Source: Acidimicrobiaceae bacterium
GTDB taxonomy: Bacteria > Actinomycetota > Acidimicrobiia > Acidimicrobiales > Palsa-688
Assembly: GCA_003166025.1 (NCBI GenBank)
Contig: PMWT01000073.1
Coordinates: forward strand, 8,657 to 72,656
Direction of reading: 5' to 3'
DNA length: 64,000 bases
In this document: positions 32,712 to 37,814 of the stretch, piece by piece
How positions within the stretch are numbered: position 1 is the first letter of the stretch
Layout of the letters: every line of letters starts with the position of its first letter
Program-made: the position numbers and the translations under genes
Notes under the pieces: generated by a model
The model's input: only the letters and a program-made list of their open reading frames with translations
Told to the model about the DNA's origin: nothing
Database searches by the model: none

Positions 32712-33601
32712 GCCGTACCCGTTGTCATGGCCCGGGCCGCCACGACCAGCTTCTCGGCCGAGGACAGGCCGAGCCGCCCGTGGAGCACGGCCTCGGGGTC
32801 GACCCGGATCTTGTCCAGGAGCCGGCGGTATATCCCTGTCATGGCCGCGGTGCAGGCCCGGCTGCGTTTGTCCAGCAGGGGTAGCAGGGCCATCCCCCGC
32901 TCGTACCATTCGGCGGCCCGGCCTGTCTCGAAGCAGATGAGGGCCACGAGGTCGTCGCGCCGCCCCGTAAGGGCGGCGTCCACGCCGAAGCGGGCCAAGT
33001 CTTCGCTCGGCAGGTAAACCCGGCCCATCACGTCACGGTCCTCGATCAGGTCTCGCAGTATGTTCGTGAGCTGCAACCCTACGCCCAGGGCGTCCGCCAG
33101 GGGTTCGGCCGCCGGCCCGTCGCTGCTGCCGTAGACGGCCAGCGACAGGCGGCCGATCGTACCGGCTACCCGGCGACAGTACTCGACGAGCTCGGAGAAG
33201 CTCCCGTACCTCCGGCCGGCGATGTCCCACTCGCACCCCTCCACCAGGTCCAGGAAGGCGCCGATCGGTACCGGGAACTGCCGGGCCGTGTCGGCCAGCG
33301 CGGTCAGGACGGGGTCGCCCGGGGGGGCGGCGACCGCCGGGGTACCTTCGCCGGTCGCCTTGGCCAGCAACTCGAGCGACGTCCGTACCTCCTGCAGGGC
33401 ATGGAGCCTGTTGTCGGCCGCGCCAGCAGCACCGGGCCCGTCGCCGATGTCGTCGATGCGCCGGGCCATGGCGTAGAGGGCGCACATGGCAGAACGCTGG
33501 CGGGGCGGGAGCAGCCGGATCCCGTAATAGAAGTTCCGCGCTCGCGACCGGGTTATCCTCTCGCACTGCTTGTAGGCGAGGGCAACGGCGGCCGCGTTCA
33601 A
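32708..33601 (-). CDS. hpnD: Presqualene diphosphate synthase, HpnD-like (squalene/phytoene synthase family)
   Basis: SRARNFYYGIRLLP, YAMARRIDDIGD, NILRDLIEDRDVMGRVYLP. The start is TTG 33601, preceded by GGAGGAG, and it overlaps the hpnC stop (TTGA). Confidence 0.8.
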   Translation of the reverse strand: MNAAAVALAYKQCERITRSRARNFYYGIRLLPPRQRSAMCALYAMARRIDDIGDGPGAAGAADNRLHALQEVRTSLELLAKATGEGTPAVAAPPGDPVLTALADTARQFPVPIGAFLDLVEGCEWDIAGRRYGSFSELVEYCRRVAGTIGRLSLAVYGSSDGPAAEPLADALGVGLQLTNILRDLIEDRDVMGRVYLPSEDLARFGVDAALTGRRDDLVALICFETGRAAEWYERGMALLPLLDKRSRACTAAMTGIYRRLLDKIRVDPEAVLHGRLGLSSAEKLVVAARAMTTGTA

Positions 33602-34602
33602 ATTGTCTCCTCCCGCGTCCCGGCCCCGGGCCGGGCCGACCGGTAGGCATTCTGGAGCAGACGGGCCAGATGGGGCCCGAAGCGTCCGATCGTGGGCCGG
33701 GAGGGCTCGGCATAAATGTCGAAGTCGACGGCAGCCAGGCCGTCCAGGGCGGCGTGGCCACCGGCCGTGAAACTGGCGACCGCAATGCGGAGGCGGCCTT
33801 TGAGGCTGGCCACCAGGGGGCTCCCGTCGTCGAGCATCCGCCGTGCCCGGGCTACTTCGAAGGCCAGAAGGGCGCGGCAGGCCGGGCTCGCACCGCCGGC
33901 GGCGCCTCGCCGGCGACGGTCGACGTACCCGGCGGACGGGGGGACCAGCTCTTCGACGCTGACCCCGAAGCGTCTCATGTCTTCTAACGGCAGGTAGACC
34001 CGCCCGACGATGGCGTCCTCGGCCACGTCCTGCCAGTGCTCGACCAGTTGCAGAGCGGTACAGGTGCTGTCGGACCAGGTGTTGCGTTGCGGTGTGGCCA
34101 CGCCGAAGATGCCGAGCACCATGCGCCCGACCGGGTTGGCGGAGAGCCGGCAATAGCCGACCAGGTCCGCGAAGGTCTCATAACGAGAGACGACCTGGTC
34201 CTGGCGGTTGGCCTGGACCAGGTCGAAGAGAGGCTCCGTGGGCAGGTCGAGCCGGTGTACCGTTTCGGCCATCCTCTTGACCAGGGGGTGTACGTCGTCG
34301 TCCGGCCTGGGGCCGTCGGGGGAGCCCCCCTGTCCCGGCCCGGGGCCGAGGGCGAGCCGGAGCTGGTGCTCGACTTCGTCGAGGGCGGCCATACGGTCAC
34401 CGGCGTAGTCGTCGCCGATCTGGTCCACGAGCCGGGCCCAGCCGTAAAGAGCCATGAGGTCGGACCGCACAGCCGCCGGCAGCAGCCGCGAGGCGACAGG
34501 GAAGTTCTCGGTGCCGGCGCGGCCGAGGACGACGTACTCAGGAGGCAGGTCCGATTTGGCGCGAGCGGCCCGGGACGGTGCACGCATCGCCGCTGCCGTC
34601 AT
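33598..34602 (-). CDS. hpnC: Hydroxysqualene synthase, HpnC-like (squalene/phytoene synthase family)
   Basis: ENFPVASRLLP, YGWARLVDQIGDD, WQDVAEDAIVGRVYLP. It is the first gene of the operon, with an AGAGGGGA RBS. Confidence 0.8.
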   Translation of the reverse strand: MTAAAMRAPSRAARAKSDLPPEYVVLGRAGTENFPVASRLLPAAVRSDLMALYGWARLVDQIGDDYAGDRMAALDEVEHQLRLALGPGPGQGGSPDGPRPDDDVHPLVKRMAETVHRLDLPTEPLFDLVQANRQDQVVSRYETFADLVGYCRLSANPVGRMVLGIFGVATPQRNTWSDSTCTALQLVEHWQDVAEDAIVGRVYLPLEDMRRFGVSVEELVPPSAGYVDRRRRGAAGGASPACRALLAFEVARARRMLDDGSPLVASLKGRLRIAVASFTAGGHAALDGLAAVDFDIYAEPSRPTIGRFGPHLARLLQNAYRSARPGAGTREETI

Positions 34603-34624
34603 GTCAAGTCCCCTCTGTGCCCGG

Positions 34625-34663
34625 GGCGGGCACCGCCCGCCGTGAGTTGTGGTGCAAACTCAC
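34625..34663 (-). promoter_or_regulatory. Structured elements in the hpnC leader: a GC hairpin and a 7-bp-arm inverted repeat
   Basis: The hairpin is GGCGGGC-acc-GCCCGCC (34625-34641). The inverted repeat is GTGAGTT-N8-AACTCAC (34642-34663). Both lie 20-60 nt upstream of the hpnC ATG at 34602. Confidence 0.4.
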
Positions 34664-34727
34664 TGACCCGTCGGTCATCTTAGACACCGTGACGAACGGC
34701 GTTGCGGAGGCTTGACGTTGGCCATCA

Positions 34728-34739
34728 GGGAGATCTCCC
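34728..34739. promoter_or_regulatory. Perfect 12-bp palindrome GGGAGATCTCCC between the regulator gene and hpnC
   Basis: Read directly. It lies 55 nt downstream of the regulator stop and about 125 nt upstream of hpnC. Confidence 0.3.
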
Positions 34740-34793
34740 GCCGGAGGGGGGATCCGCACGGCGTCCGTCCCGTCCCCGGCCGCAGCCTCGGGC

Positions 34794-35639
34794 TCAGGGC
34801 GATGCCGGCCGTAGTGCCCAATCGGGCCCGACGGCCCACTGGAGCACGGTGGCGAACGCCGTCTCGATGACCTCGAGCCCGGCCGGGACCGGGTCGTCGG
34901 ACAACGGTCGCCCGGCTGCCTCCGCCAGGGTACGCAGGACCCGAGCAGCGAGGATCTGGCTGGGGAAGTCACCTCGGGCCGCCCGCGCGCCCAGTTCCAA
35001 GAGGATGGGCATGGCCCGGGTGATGAGCCGACCGAAGACGACTGCGGTCTTGCCCGGGTCGTGAGCCAGGCCCTCAGGGCCCCCGAGCTCGGCGACCGCT
35101 TGGGCGAAGCGCTCGGCGGTGTCCTGGCAGAGGCTCTCCACTACGGCGGTGAAAAGGGCCTCCTTGGAGGGGAAATGCCGGTAAACGGTCCCCTTGGCCA
35201 CACCTGCCGTGGCCGCGATCTCGCTTACGGTGACTGCAGCGTAGCCCTTGGGTTCGGAGAACAATTTGAACGCTGCGTCGACCAGGCGTTTCTGGGGTTC
35301 TTCGCTGCAGTCGGGCGTGGCCGGCGGCAGCGGGTGGCGGCCGTCCATGAGGTCGGGCAGGACCGCTTTGATCTGGCCCAGGCCCATGGCCCGTTCCTCG
35401 CGAAGCTCCCGGATGAGCTGCAGCGCGTGCAGGTGGACCTCGGAGTACACGTAGCGGCCCGGGCGGGTCAGCTCCGGCTCGGGCAGGAGGCCCAGGCGAC
35501 GGTAGTGGTGCACGGTGCTCGGGGGAACGCCGGATAGGGCGACGAGCCGGCCGAGCGAGATCGGCTCGCCGGCGCGACTACCAGGGCCGGCCCGGTCCGG
35601 GCCGCCTTGGCGGGCTGGTTGGGTTGCTCCTGAGGCCAT
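34794..35639 (-). CDS. Dual-HTH transcription regulator: MerR-type N-terminal HTH fused to a TetR-family regulator
   Basis: MerR-like part: ISLGRLVALSGVPPSTVHHYRRLGLLPEP...YVYSEVHLHALQLIRELRE. TetR-like part: RLVDAAFKLFSEPKGYAAVTVSEIAATAGVAKGTVYRHFPSKEALF. I prefer ATG 35639 over the ORF-track TTG 35675. Confidence 0.75.
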   Translation of the reverse strand: MASGATQPARQGGPDRAGPGSRAGEPISLGRLVALSGVPPSTVHHYRRLGLLPEPELTRPGRYVYSEVHLHALQLIRELREERAMGLGQIKAVLPDLMDGRHPLPPATPDCSEEPQKRLVDAAFKLFSEPKGYAAVTVSEIAATAGVAKGTVYRHFPSKEALFTAVVESLCQDTAERFAQAVAELGGPEGLAHDPGKTAVVFGRLITRAMPILLELGARAARGDFPSQILAARVLRTLAEAAGRPLSDDPVPAGLEVIETAFATVLQWAVGPDWALRPASP

Positions 35640-35687
35640 AGGCACCGTCCGTGCGGTTCTGCCACCCAGATTCAAGCACGGCCGCGC

Positions 35688-37121
35688 CTACAGCGCCCTG
35701 CGCAGTACCCACCGCTTGAAGCCGTTGTAGGGCGGGTAGACCAGCGGCACCTCACCGTGCGTGGGCCGGCGGAGGACGGACTTGGTGTGGCTGAAGGTAT
35801 CGAAGCCGGCCTTGCCGTGGTAGGCCCCCAGCCCGCTGGCACCCACGCCGCCGAAGGGTAGGCCCGGGACGCCCAGCTGGACGGCGTTGTGATTGGTGCA
35901 CACCGAACCCGACGAGGTACCGGCTATGACTTTTTCGACGAGGTTGTCGTCGTCCGAGTAGATGTAGAGGGCCAAAGGCTTGTCCCGTCGGTTCAGTTCG
36001 ACCAGAGCGTCGTCTATGTCGTCATAGGTGACAATGGGGAGGACAGGACCGAAGATCTCCTCCTGCATAAGCGGGTCGTCCCAGCTCACGTCGGCCACCA
36101 CCGTCGGAGCGAAGTAGCGGGACGGCCCGTCCCAGGTCCCGCCCACCACCACCCGGCCCTGCGTGGCCCTGACCAGGCCCACCAGCCTGTCCATATGGGC
36201 TTGGTTGACCACCCGGGCGAGGTCCGGGCTGGGCCCGGGGCCGTCGCCGTAAAACTTGGACAGCTGGCGCACCACCGCCTCGACCAGGGGGCGTTCGGCC
36301 GCCCGGGCGACAAGGGCATAGTCGGGGGCCACGCACGTCTGCCCGGCGTTGAGGAACTTCCCCCAGGTCAGGCGCCGGGCCACGACGTCCACATCTCTAG
36401 GAGAGCCGACGATGGCGGGGTTTTTTCCTCCGAGCTCGAGCGTTACCGGGGTCAGGTGCCGGGCCGCGGCCGTCATCACCAGACGGCCCACCCTCCCGCT
36501 CCCGGTAAAAAACACATGGTCCCAACGTTGCTCGAGCAGGCTCCGGGCTACGTCCGGGCCACCTTCGGCCACGCTCACGGCGGCATCGTCGAGGTAGGCG
36601 GGGAGCAACCTGGCCAGGACGGCCGACGTGGCCGGGGCCAGTTCCGAGGGCTTGACGGCGGCTGTGTTGCCCGCCGCCAAGGCGAAGGCGAGAGGAAGGA
36701 CCACGCAGCGGACTGGGTAGTTCCACGGCCCGATCACCAGGACGGCGCCAAGTGGCTCGGGCACGGTCTGCGCTCTTCCCGGCCATAGTGGCCATGGGAC
36801 AGGCACCGCCTGTGGCGCCGCCCAGCCATCGAGGTGGCGGGCAATGCCCTCGATGTCCCTGCGCACGGCGGCGACATCGGTCAACCAGGCCTCCAGTTCA
36901 GGTTTGCCCATGTCAGCCGCCATGGCGTCCGTGAGCGTCCCGGCATCGTGGCGCAGCATGAGCACCAGACGGTCGAGCTGCCGGCGGCGCCATTGGAGCG
37001 GGCGTGTCACGCCCGTGGCGAAGGTGGCCCGGAGCCGGTCGGCCAAGGCAAGTTGGGGAAGGGCAGCGCCGCTGAGTACCGGGCTGGTCATCAGGTACAT
37101 AGTGTGGCCCGCCCTGTCCAT
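35688..37121 (-). CDS. Aldehyde dehydrogenase, class-3-like
   Basis: ELGGKNP, FLNAGQTCVAPDY, EEIFGPVLP. I placed the start at ATG 37121, downstream of the XRE gene stop. Confidence 0.85.
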   Translation of the reverse strand: MDRAGHTMYLMTSPVLSGAALPQLALADRLRATFATGVTRPLQWRRRQLDRLVLMLRHDAGTLTDAMAADMGKPELEAWLTDVAAVRRDIEGIARHLDGWAAPQAVPVPWPLWPGRAQTVPEPLGAVLVIGPWNYPVRCVVLPLAFALAAGNTAAVKPSELAPATSAVLARLLPAYLDDAAVSVAEGGPDVARSLLEQRWDHVFFTGSGRVGRLVMTAAARHLTPVTLELGGKNPAIVGSPRDVDVVARRLTWGKFLNAGQTCVAPDYALVARAAERPLVEAVVRQLSKFYGDGPGPSPDLARVVNQAHMDRLVGLVRATQGRVVVGGTWDGPSRYFAPTVVADVSWDDPLMQEEIFGPVLPIVTYDDIDDALVELNRRDKPLALYIYSDDDNLVEKVIAGTSSGSVCTNHNAVQLGVPGLPFGGVGASGLGAYHGKAGFDTFSHTKSVLRRPTHGEVPLVYPPYNGFKRWVLRRAL

Positions 37122-37173: not shown

Positions 37174-37683
37174 TTAGGTCCTGATGCCCAGCTCCTCGAT
37201 GCGGCTGCGCATGGCCTGTTCGTCCCGTTCAAAGACCCGGGCCAGTGCCCGTACGTCCTCGGCCCGGATGGTGATGAGGCGTCCGTTGAAGTCGCCCCGC
37301 TGGATCTGGATCATGCCTATATAGCGGCGCAGTACCTCCCGCTCGGGCGCGTCCAGGCGCTCGAGGCGGGAAAGGTCGATCGTTATCGGCCCTCCAGCGT
37401 GATTGGGCGTGGCCCGGCTTTCGGTGCCGTAGTCGGGGTCGGGTGACAACTTGGGGAGCAGCTGGTCTACAGGGACGCCGTACAGGCGAGCGAGGCGCTG
37501 CAAACGCAGGACCGAGATGATCCTCTCGCCGCGCTCGTAGGCCCCCAGGACGGAGGCCTTGAACTCCCGCTCGGACTGCTCTTCGACCGCTTGTAGTGAC
37601 AGACCCTGCTGGCGACGGATGTTCCGTAGCCGTTCGCCCACGTGACGGGCATATACAGGTGTCATCTCCTCCGTGACGCTCAT
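37174..37683 (-). CDS. XRE-family HTH transcriptional regulator with an uncharacterised C-terminal domain
   Basis: The HTH is GERLRNIRRQQGLSLQAVEEQSEREFKASVLGAYERGER. Candidate starts are ATG 37683 and ATG 37665. Confidence 0.7.
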   Translation of the reverse strand: MSVTEEMTPVYARHVGERLRNIRRQQGLSLQAVEEQSEREFKASVLGAYERGERIISVLRLQRLARLYGVPVDQLLPKLSPDPDYGTESRATPNHAGGPITIDLSRLERLDAPEREVLRRYIGMIQIQRGDFNGRLITIRAEDVRALARVFERDEQAMRSRIEELGIRT

Positions 37684-37814
37684 CGCTGTTGCTCCATTGG
37701 TCGGGGCTGTCTCCAGCTCGTTCGAACTGATAACACTAAGAGTAGCCAAAACTGGCTACGGAAAGTAGTAATACCTGTCCAAACAGGCCAGAACCGGCCA
37801 AACCGTCGGTCCGA

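What the first reader, a model, noticed from the sequence alone, without database searches (positions are those of the whole stretch)
34794..35639. A MerR-HTH plus TetR-HTH fusion regulator sits immediately upstream of the hopanoid operon
Seen in the sequence: one ORF carries two different DNA-binding modules. The first is a MerR-type HTH (LGRLVALSGVPPSTVHHYRRLGLLPEP...YSEVHLHALQLIRELRE). The second is a full TetR-type regulator (RLVDAAFKLFSEPKGYAAVTVSEIAATAGVAKGTVYRHFPSKEALF plus a ligand-domain-length C-terminus). It is on the same strand as hpnC, 190 bp upstream.

Established knowledge: MerR proteins usually activate by distorting the promoter spacer. TetR proteins usually repress by occluding an operator and respond to lipophilic ligands.

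Inference: this may be a lipid- or membrane-stress-responsive switch for hopanoid synthesis that combines both mechanisms. Dedicated regulators of hopanoid operons are poorly described.
Basis: partly seen in the sequence, partly recalled or inferred. Interest (0 to 1): 0.6.

Follow-up and report, generated by a model that had tools for sequence, protein, structure and literature searches.

The report
Two-headed MerR-TetR repressor of hopanoid operon
This gene encodes a regulator with two different DNA-binding heads that travels with the hopanoid (bacterial "sterol-like" lipid) operon across Acidimicrobiales and most likely switches it off by sitting on a conserved palindrome over the operon's promoter.

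Summary
ORF 34794-35639 (-) carries a MerR-type winged HTH (aa 27-98), a 16-residue linker and a complete TetR regulator (aa 115-281). Both heads are strongly conserved.

- Link to hopanoid genes: relatives at 28-99% identity lie directly upstream of hpnC (or dxs-hpnC), even where all other synteny is lost. In 301 genomes of the order, 36 of the 38 that carry the fusion also carry shc.
- Operator: TGAC(C/T)-N4-(A/G)GTCA follows the regulator gene in 46-53 of 59 loci. It is found upstream of hpnC in only 1 of 10 hopanoid loci that lack the regulator. It occurs once in this genome in its extended form.
- Position: the site overlaps the -10 hexamer and the inferred transcription start. In many clades it is flanked by outer arms (ACAA/TTGT), giving a 34-36 bp nested palindrome.
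- No MerR mechanism: the MerR part has no coiled-coil helix, and the site is not in the promoter spacer. Promoter twisting is therefore unlikely; ligand-released repression is the best model.

Which head reads which arm, and what the ligand is, are inferred only. The scan found the same architecture before on other DNA (e1-3894291 and others). I found no paper describing it.

The parts
34794..35639 (-). Regulator gene (281 aa), a MerR-head/TetR-body fusion. An alternative TTG start lies at 35675.
   Evidence: ORF list; Pfam MerR_1 plus TetR_N; conserved family
35346..35561 (-). MerR-type winged HTH, aa 27-98 (a1, a2, beta-hairpin wing, a3, a4). No a5 coiled coil follows.
   Evidence: Pfam PF13411 aa 28-95; AF2 secondary structure; nearly invariant L32, P39, Y46, G50, L51, P53, R62, Y65, H69, R77, L79, R80, L87, L94, P95
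35298..35345 (-). Inter-domain linker, aa 99-114, Pro-rich, lower pLDDT. Shorter than in most relatives.
   Evidence: AF2; alignment gaps; linker length table
35142..35297 (-). TetR-type HTH, aa 115-166
   Evidence: Pfam PF00440 aa 119-166; invariant Y153 and K159, nearly invariant K149, G150, R154, F163
34797..35141 (-). TetR C-terminal helical domain, aa 167-281 (presumed dimerisation and ligand pocket)
   Evidence: AF2 helices 159-276; Foldseek hits to KstR, FadR, EthR2 and FasR, probability 1.00, TM 0.5-0.6 normalised to target
34652..34685 (-). Proposed 34-bp operator. On the minus strand: GTCTAA-GA-TGACC-GACG-GGTCA-GTGAGT-TTGCAC.
   Evidence: Conserved block in all 21 close relatives while the rest of the spacer diverges. 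A weight matrix built from relatives finds only this site in the 5.33-Mb genome, 61.2 of 65.1 bits.
34664..34677 (.). Inner palindrome TGACC-N4-GGTCA, the universal core of the operator
   Evidence: Strict form within 330 nt after the regulator stop in 46 of 59 loci, loose form in 53 of 59. Arms invariant and N4 variable. Same half-site and spacing as the RutR box TTGACCAnnTGGTCAA.
34652..34657 (-). Right outer arm TTGCAC
   Evidence: Conserved in the window clade. Matches TT(A/G)CAC and TTGT(A/T) arms in other clades. Kept in L014 and L017, where it lies inside the hpnC coding sequence.
34677..34682 (-). -10 hexamer TAAGAT. It overlaps the left arm and the first base of the inner palindrome.
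   Evidence: Invariant or TAAAAT/TATGAT in relatives. In L014 and L017 the hpnC GTG start lies 7 nt after it, the geometry of a leaderless mRNA.
34683..34688 (-). Conserved GGTGTC block next to the -10 hexamer, function unassigned. Its 3' end overlaps the proposed left arm GTCTAA (34680-34685).
   Evidence: Consensus gGTGtC in 21 sites
34702..34707 (-). -35 position. Reads CCGCAA in the window, but TTGC(G/A)(T/C) in nearly all close relatives, always 19 nt from TAAGAT.
33598..34602 (-). hpnC, first gene of the regulated operon (hpnC-hpnD-hpnE-prenyl synthase-shc ...)
   Evidence: NCBIfam TIGR03464, TIGR03465, TIGR03467 and TIGR01507

Best explanation
The gene encodes the dedicated local repressor of the hopanoid operon.

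Architecture and binding (partly inferred). The protein dimerises through its TetR body (inferred). It binds a nested palindrome that covers the -10 hexamer, the transcription start and about 25 bp downstream of the hpnC promoter, which would block RNA polymerase.
- The two TetR heads most likely read the inner dyad TGACC-N4-GGTCA.
- The two MerR-type winged-HTH heads are tethered by flexible linkers. They most likely read the outer arms one helical turn away on each side (ACAA/TTGT in most clades; GTCTAA and TTGCAC in this genome).
- The extra heads would lengthen the footprint and add affinity or specificity.

Release (inferred). A small, probably lipophilic ligand bound in the TetR pocket would release the protein. 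Its identity is unknown; candidates are pathway intermediates or products.

Shown here: the domain architecture, conservation of both heads, linkage to hpn genes, the operator and its position, and co-occurrence of operator and regulator.

Inferred: dimer formation, repression rather than activation, which head reads which arm, and the ligand.
For: 1. Architecture and conservation.
2. Adjacency. All 20 close loci, 19 of 20 distant loci of other families at 33-51% identity, 10 of 16 further loci with most of the rest cut by contig ends, and 3 loci outside the order have the regulator upstream of and co-directional with hpnC-hpnD-hpnE-ids-shc. The aldh/bldD/glgX synteny is lost outside the window's own family. 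Where dxs is inserted, the operator sits in front of dxs.
3. Phyletic pattern in 301 genomes of the order: shc in 48, two-domain regulator in 38, both in 36.
4. Operator. The strict core follows the regulator gene in 46 of 59 loci and the loose core in 53 of 59, against about 0.001 expected per locus for the strict form. It lies upstream of hpnC in 1 of 10 hopanoid loci without the regulator. There is a single site in this genome.
5. Position. TTGACA-N17/18-TACAA(C/A) promoters have the left arm as the -10 hexamer in distant clades. In L014 and L017 the hpnC GTG start lies 7 nt after TAAGAT.
6. Nested palindromes. Twelve of 30 distant sites have at least 9 of 14 complementary outer pairs (about 3.5-4 expected) and 13 have at least 8. 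L039 reaches 14 of 14.
7. TetR precedent. RutR has the same inner half-site and spacing.
8. The hopanoid-linked proteins are separated from non-hpn paralogs by a branch with 100/100 support.
Against: - No binding, expression or ligand data exist.
- In the window's own clade the flanks are conserved but not palindromic at symmetric spacing (mean 2.3 of 14 complementary pairs). The arm assignment there needs a 2-bp off-centre shift.
- Comparing recognition-helix residues with arm sequences gave no clear assignment of heads to arms.
- Twelve of 48 shc-bearing genomes lack the regulator, so it is not obligatory for the pathway.
- One genome (G262) keeps the regulator without hpn genes. One (G292) keeps an operator-like site without the regulator.
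- The window's -35 hexamer is degenerate (CCGCAA), and the 19-nt spacer in this clade is unexplained.
Confidence: 0.65

Rival explanations
1. Dimer-of-dimers TetR binding. The long palindrome is covered by two TetR dimers, as in QacR-type operators. The MerR head then does something else, such as contacting another DNA site, looping, or contacting a protein.
For: Long operators bound by two TetR dimers are established for some family members (my own knowledge, not checked here). In the window clade the flanks are not symmetric.
Against: Outer arms (ACAA/TTGT) differ in sequence from inner arms (TGACC/GGTCA), so one kind of head would have to read two unrelated half-sites. The MerR head is as conserved as the TetR head, including its recognition helix and wing, which argues that it binds DNA.
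Confidence: 0.15
2. Swapped assignment. The MerR heads read the inner dyad, whose 5-4-5 layout resembles mer-type operators, and the TetR heads read the outer arms.
For: MerR-family operators are often dyads with a 4-bp centre (my own knowledge). The core dyad is conserved even in distant paralogs (L067, L070), as is the MerR a2 motif.
Against: Without the a5 coiled coil the MerR heads have no fixed spacing of their own. TetR heads are held about one turn apart by the dimer and match the RutR precedent. N-terminal additions to TetR proteins reach the outside of the operator (SimR, my own knowledge).
Confidence: 0.12
3. MerR-like activator. The protein binds the promoter and activates the suboptimal 19-nt-spacer promoter by DNA distortion.
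For: The window clade keeps an exact 19-nt distance between TTGCxx and TAAGAT, with a conserved GGTGTC in the spacer.
Against: There is no coiled coil. The dyad centre lies downstream of the -10 hexamer. In other clades the same operator accompanies ordinary TTGACA-N17/18 promoters.
Confidence: 0.06
4. The adjacency is incidental. The regulator controls the upstream aldehyde dehydrogenase gene or distant targets.
For: Only 48 nt separate aldh from the regulator gene in this window, so the two may be co-transcribed.
Against: aldh is absent from the neighbourhood outside the window's family, while hpnC adjacency persists. The only operator in the genome is in front of hpnC.
Confidence: 0.02

Closest known systems
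Lipid- or steroid-sensing TetR-family repressors (M. tuberculosis KstR 3mnl/5cw8/5fmp, B. subtilis FadR 3whb/3whc, FasR 6o6n, EthR2)
   Same: TetR HTH plus an all-helical C-terminal domain. These are the nearest folds (Foldseek probability 1.00, TM 0.5-0.6 normalised to target) and are among the sequence-profile hits. Shared features are a palindromic operator over a promoter next to the regulated lipid genes and presumed release by a ligand.
   Different: This protein has an extra N-terminal MerR-type winged HTH on each subunit, a 34-36 bp nested operator, and the hopanoid/squalene operon as target. The ligand is unknown. Sequence identity to these proteins is only 15-26%.
MerR family (MerR, CueR, CadR, BmrR, HspR)
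   Same: The N-terminal domain is a bona fide MerR-type head: a1, a2, beta-hairpin wing, a3 and a4.
   Different: There is no a5 antiparallel coiled coil and no MerR-type effector domain. The operator is not in the -35/-10 spacer. The protein is therefore not a mechanistic member of the family.
E. coli RutR (TetR family) and its box TTGACCAnnTGGTCAA
   Same: Same half-site and spacing as the inner dyad TGACC-N4-GGTCA (PMC2475637).
   Different: RutR is a plain TetR protein that senses uracil. There is no close sequence relationship beyond the HTH (NCBIfam E about 1e-5).
CarH/LitR-type regulators (MerR-type head fused to a B12-binding module, controlling carotenoid genes). Recalled from my own knowledge, not tested here.
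   Same: A MerR-type head without the canonical coiled coil serves as a portable DNA-binding module on a foreign sensor and oligomerisation domain. The targets are isoprenoid-lipid genes.
   Different: Here the partner is a TetR regulator that carries its own HTH, so each chain has two DNA-binding heads.
Mce3R (PDB 9b7y), a TetR regulator with two TetR repeats in one chain
   Same: Two HTH modules per polypeptide. It is the best PDB sequence hit to the family profile (E 8e-25).
   Different: Both modules are TetR-type and form a pseudo-dimer. There is no MerR head.

Membership tests
TetR family regulators | N-terminal three-helix HTH matching PF00440 above the gathering score | tested here: met
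   69.6 bits against 24, aa 119-166
TetR family regulators | All-helical C-terminal domain (a4-a9/10) with a TetR fold | tested here: met
   AF2 helices 159-276 at pLDDT above 90; Foldseek hits to KstR, FadR, EthR2 and FasR over 160-185 columns
TetR family regulators | Palindromic operator at the promoter of an adjacent gene | tested here: met
   TGACC-N4-GGTCA over the -10 hexamer and +1 of hpnC. Conserved in 46-53 of 59 loci and unique in the genome.
TetR family regulators | Homodimer whose DNA binding is released by a small ligand | not testable with these tools
   Needs biochemistry
MerR family regulators | N-terminal winged HTH (PF13411/PF00376) | tested here: met
   PF13411 56 bits against 21.6; PF00376 28.6 bits against 28.2
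MerR family regulators | Long a5 helix forming the antiparallel coiled-coil dimer | tested here: not met
   After a4 (aa 87-98) comes a 16-residue non-helical linker and then TetR a1. Full-length MerR-type models match only over their first 54-65 of 124-127 positions, and HspR over positions 11-70 of 92.
MerR family regulators | C-terminal MerR-type effector-binding region | tested here: not met
   The C-terminal part is a TetR body
MerR family regulators | Operator dyad inside an over-long (19-20 bp) -35/-10 spacer | tested here: not met
   The dyad centre lies about 7 bp downstream of the -10 hexamer. A 19-nt spacer exists in the window clade but carries no conserved dyad.
Hopanoid-linked MerR-TetR fusion subfamily (defined here and in earlier scan notes) | Two-domain protein placed on the hopanoid-linked side of the branch that separates it from non-hpn paralogs | tested here: met
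   Tree of 72 proteins: 59 hopanoid-linked rows against 13 paralogs, branch support 100/100
Hopanoid-linked MerR-TetR fusion subfamily (defined here and in earlier scan notes) | Gene directly upstream of and co-directional with hpnC (or dxs-hpnC), with the core dyad in between | tested here: met
   for the window; for relatives

The most novel reading that the evidence does not exclude
One dimer reads a four-part operator with two different kinds of DNA-binding head per subunit: TetR heads on the inner dyad and MerR heads on the outer arms. It is released by a hopanoid-pathway lipid such as squalene, hydroxysqualene or a hopanoid. If so, this would be the first dedicated feedback repressor described for bacterial sterol-surrogate synthesis, and a new way of building a long operator footprint from two old transcription-factor families.
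Probability: 0.3. Interest if true: 0.75.

Novelty: new variant of a known kind. Interest (0 to 1): 0.62.

Why it matters
Hopanoids are major bacterial membrane lipids and geological biomarkers. I found no paper in the held library that describes a DNA-binding regulator dedicated to their biosynthetic operon.

This work gives a concrete, testable regulator-operator pair: a 281-aa protein and a 34-bp site, with natural variants from about 60 genomes. It applies to a widespread soil and peat lineage that cannot be studied genetically.

It also shows a MerR-type head reused as an accessory DNA-binding module on a TetR scaffold. Current annotation hides this design, because all sources name these proteins simply TetR or AcrR. 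Relatives of the design appear to control other isoprenoid-type oxidoreductases.

Tried and rejected
I used the genome search instead.
- The strict sigma-70 promoter and terminator scan found nothing in 34400-35900. The promoter was defined by phylogenetic footprinting.
- RNA-element reading of the conserved block: rejected. There is no Rfam match. The arms are invariant while the 4-nt centre varies, so there is no covariation.
- Leader-peptide reading of the ATG inside TAAGATGACC (a 24-codon uORF ending 1 nt before the hpnC ATG): rejected. Length and sequence are not conserved, and conservation follows the palindrome rather than codon positions.
GGGAGATCTCCC (34728-34739) is not conserved even in the 99% twin L001. 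GTGAGTT-N8-AACTCAC is kept only in the five closest relatives.
- Assigning heads to arms by co-variation of recognition-helix residues with arm sequences gave only a weak, phylogeny-confounded trend: MerR a2 HHY to R(H/Y)Y goes with altered outer arms.
- A search for long palindromes next to non-hpn paralogs found none reaching 14 of 20 pairs.

Full report
**1. Observation**

The ORF on the minus strand from 35639 (ATG) to 34794 encodes 281 aa.
- Pfam finds MerR_1 at aa 28-95 (E 4.2e-15) and TetR_N at aa 119-166 (E 1.9e-19). Both are far above their gathering scores.
- NCBIfam matches are all partial. TetR-type models hit only the HTH. Full-length MerR/CadR models match only over their first 54-65 of 124-127 positions, and HspR over positions 11-70 of 92.
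- An AlphaFold2 model built on a 53-sequence family alignment has mean pLDDT 90.4. It shows a complete MerR winged HTH: a1 29-36, a2 40-48, hairpin 56-65, a3 67-83, a4 87-98. A non-helical linker follows at 99-114, then a TetR body with helices from 115 to 276. There is no long a5 helix.
- The genes downstream on the same strand are hpnC, hpnD, hpnE, a prenyl diphosphate synthase and squalene-hopene cyclase. The gap to hpnC is 191 bp.

**2. The fusion is a conserved family**

- A search of 5.8 billion proteins returned more than 100 two-domain relatives at 56-99% identity. All that carry a name come from Acidimicrobiales metagenome bins and are named only "TetR" or "AcrR family".
- An exhaustive HMMER search of 1.84 billion representatives gave 422 hits at E up to 1e-10. 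Most of the best 150 span both domains.
- In the 53-sequence alignment the MerR head carries as many nearly invariant positions as the TetR head. For the MerR head these are L32, P39, Y46, G50, L51, P53, R62, Y65, H69, R77, L79, R80, L87, L94 and P95. For the TetR head they are F127, V136, A145, K149, G150, Y153, R154, K159 and F163.
- No PDB entry matches both domains.
- The TetR body's nearest folds are KstR, FadR, EthR2 and FasR, which bind lipids or steroid-CoA. This is only a resemblance.

**3. Link to hopanoid genes**

- All 20 close loci keep glgX-bldD-aldh-regulator-hpnCDE-ids-shc. That could be mere relatedness.
- I therefore sampled 301 genomes of the order and fetched 36 more distant loci.
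- In 19 of the first 20 (33-51% identity, many GTDB families) the regulator is still directly upstream of and co-directional with hpnC-hpnD-hpnE-ids-shc, although aldh, bldD and glgX are gone.
- Ten of the next 16 show the same arrangement. Most of the others are cut by contig ends.
- In several families a dxs gene lies between the regulator and hpnC.
- Three loci from outside the order also keep the arrangement.
- Phyletic pattern: shc is present in 48 of 301 genomes and the two-domain regulator in 38; 36 genomes have both.
- The two exceptions among regulator-bearing genomes are G031, where hpnC follows the regulator on a 2-kb contig, and G262, which has an orphan copy.
- Twelve shc-bearing genomes lack the regulator. 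This was confirmed by exhaustive scoring.
- A maximum-likelihood tree separates the 59 hopanoid-linked proteins from 13 paralogs of other classes with 100/100 support.
- Those paralogs occur at up to six per genome and are not next to hpn genes. Five or six of them sit beside CrtI/HpnE-like flavin oxidoreductases.

**4. The operator**

Close relatives. Aligning the regulator-hpnC spacers shows one block conserved against an otherwise diverged background. The consensus is gGTGtCTAAgA-TGACC-N4-GGTCA-N6-TTGcAC.

More distant loci. The same core dyad TGAC(C/T)-N4-(A/G)GTCA lies just after the regulator's stop codon.
- It is often inside a longer palindrome, TACAA-N4/5-TGACC-N4-GGTCA-N4/5-TTGTA.
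  - L030: TACAACTGTGCGACCGATCGGTCGCATACTTGTA.
  - L024: GCGAACAATCAGATGACCTCATGGTCACTTTGTTGTTCGC.
  - L039: 42 bp, perfect.
- Twelve of 30 distant sites have at least 9 of 14 complementary outer pairs, and 13 have at least 8. About 3.5-4 pairs are expected by chance.

Counts.
- Among 59 regulator-bearing loci with enough downstream sequence, the strict core is present in 46 and the loose core in 53. Three more have versions with one or two mismatches. The chance expectation for the strict core is about 0.001 per locus.
- Among 10 hopanoid loci without the regulator, only one (G292) has such a site upstream of hpnC.
- In this genome, TGACC-N4-GGTCA occurs 11 times against 5.5 expected, but only the hpnC copy has the conserved flanks.
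- A weight matrix built from relatives alone finds that single site, 61.2 of 65.1 bits, with nothing else above 12 bits in 5.33 Mb.

Regulator and operator thus appear and disappear together, and the regulon here looks like one promoter.

**5. Position relative to the promoter**

- In distant clades the left outer arm is itself a -10 hexamer (TACAAC, TACAAA). It lies 17-18 nt downstream of TTGACA.
- In the window clade the -10 hexamer is TAAGAT, whose last T is the first base of TGACC. A TTGC(G/A)(T/C) hexamer lies exactly 19 nt upstream in nearly all relatives. The window itself has the weaker CCGCAA.
- Independent support comes from L014 and L017. There the only in-frame hpnC start is a GTG inside the palindrome, 7 nt after TAAGAT/TAAAAT. 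This is the geometry of a leaderless mRNA. In both, the right arm TTGCAC is retained inside the coding sequence.
- The dyad therefore spans roughly -7 to +7, and the whole operator roughly -15 to +25. That position fits a repressor, not a MerR-type activator.

**6. Which head reads what (inference)**

- The inner dyad has the half-site and spacing of the box of RutR, a TetR-family protein: TTGACCAnnTGGTCAA (PMC2475637).
- The outer arms lie about one helical turn outside the inner half-sites and have an unrelated sequence. This suits a second kind of head.
- N-terminal extensions of TetR proteins reach the outer flanks of the operator (SimR, my own knowledge).
- In the window clade the arms are best read as GTCTAA at N2 and TTGCAC at N6. 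The total length of 34 bp is the same as elsewhere, but the inner dyad sits 2 bp off centre. This clade also has a linker about 11 residues shorter.
- Co-variation of recognition helices with arm sequences was not decisive.

**7. What it is not**

- It is not a mechanistic MerR. It has no coiled coil and no MerR effector domain, and the dyad is not in the spacer.
- It is not an RNA element.
- It is not a leader peptide.

**8. Novelty and limits**

- I found no paper in the held library on MerR-TetR fusions or on a dedicated DNA-binding regulator of a hopanoid operon.
- Earlier notes of this scan describe the same architecture in front of hopanoid operons in other genomes, and a wider two-headed family. 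I read them after my own analysis, and they agree with it.
- My estimates: about 0.8 that this is the local regulator binding the dyad, about 0.7 that it represses, and about 0.45 for the head-to-arm assignment.

Noticed in passing
L014 6830-6880 and L017 6860-6900: In two related genomes the hpnC start codon is a GTG inside the operator palindrome, 7 nt after the -10 hexamer. hpnC is probably translated from a leaderless mRNA there, whereas most relatives have a leader of about 60-70 nt.
   Followed up: partly
window 34610-34650 (minus strand), and the same place in L001-L008: A short GC-rich hairpin lies about 10 nt upstream of the hpnC ribosome-binding site. The window has GGCGGG-CGGTGC-CCGCCC. 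Relatives have different stem sequences at the same place (for example GCTCG...CGAGC, GGGC...GCCC), which hints at a structure-conserved 5'-UTR element. Covariation was not tested.
   Followed up: no
L062, L066, L067, L069, L070 (genomes of other classes of the phylum): Paralogous MerR-TetR fusions, up to six per genome, sit next to about 500-aa PF01593 flavin oxidoreductases of the CrtI/HpnE type. L067 and L070 have TATAAT followed directly by TGACT-N4-GGTCA or AGACC-N4-AGTCA. The core dyad may therefore be older than the hopanoid-linked branch.
   Followed up: partly
L033, L034, L036, L039, L044, L052, L054: In several families a dxs gene (TIGR00204, E about 1e-172) is inserted between the regulator and hpnC. 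In most of these loci the operator then lies in front of dxs (no site was found in L044), which would bring the first MEP-pathway step under the same control.
   Followed up: partly
L076 (G292) about 6525; L029 (G262): One genome keeps an operator-like site (GAACAATCGGGTGACCATTGAGTCA) upstream of hpnC but has no detectable regulator. Another keeps the regulator but has no shc or hpn genes nearby. These may be decay intermediates.
   Followed up: partly
window 37174-37749 (-): A BldD-like regulator gene (NF050110, E 1.8e-44, below its cut-off) lies between glgX and the aldehyde dehydrogenase gene. It is conserved at this place throughout the window's family.
   Followed up: no
window 34728-34739 and 34642-34663: The perfect 12-bp palindrome GGGAGATCTCCC is not conserved even in the 99%-identical relative L001. 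The repeat GTGAGTT-N8-AACTCAC is kept only in the five closest relatives and overlaps the right operator arm.
   Followed up: yes
window 34603-34682 (minus strand): The ATG inside TAAGATGACC opens a 24-codon uORF whose TGA stop lies 1 nt before the hpnC ATG. In L002 the two overlap as ATGA. The length is not conserved in other relatives, so this is probably chance in GC-rich DNA.
   Followed up: partly
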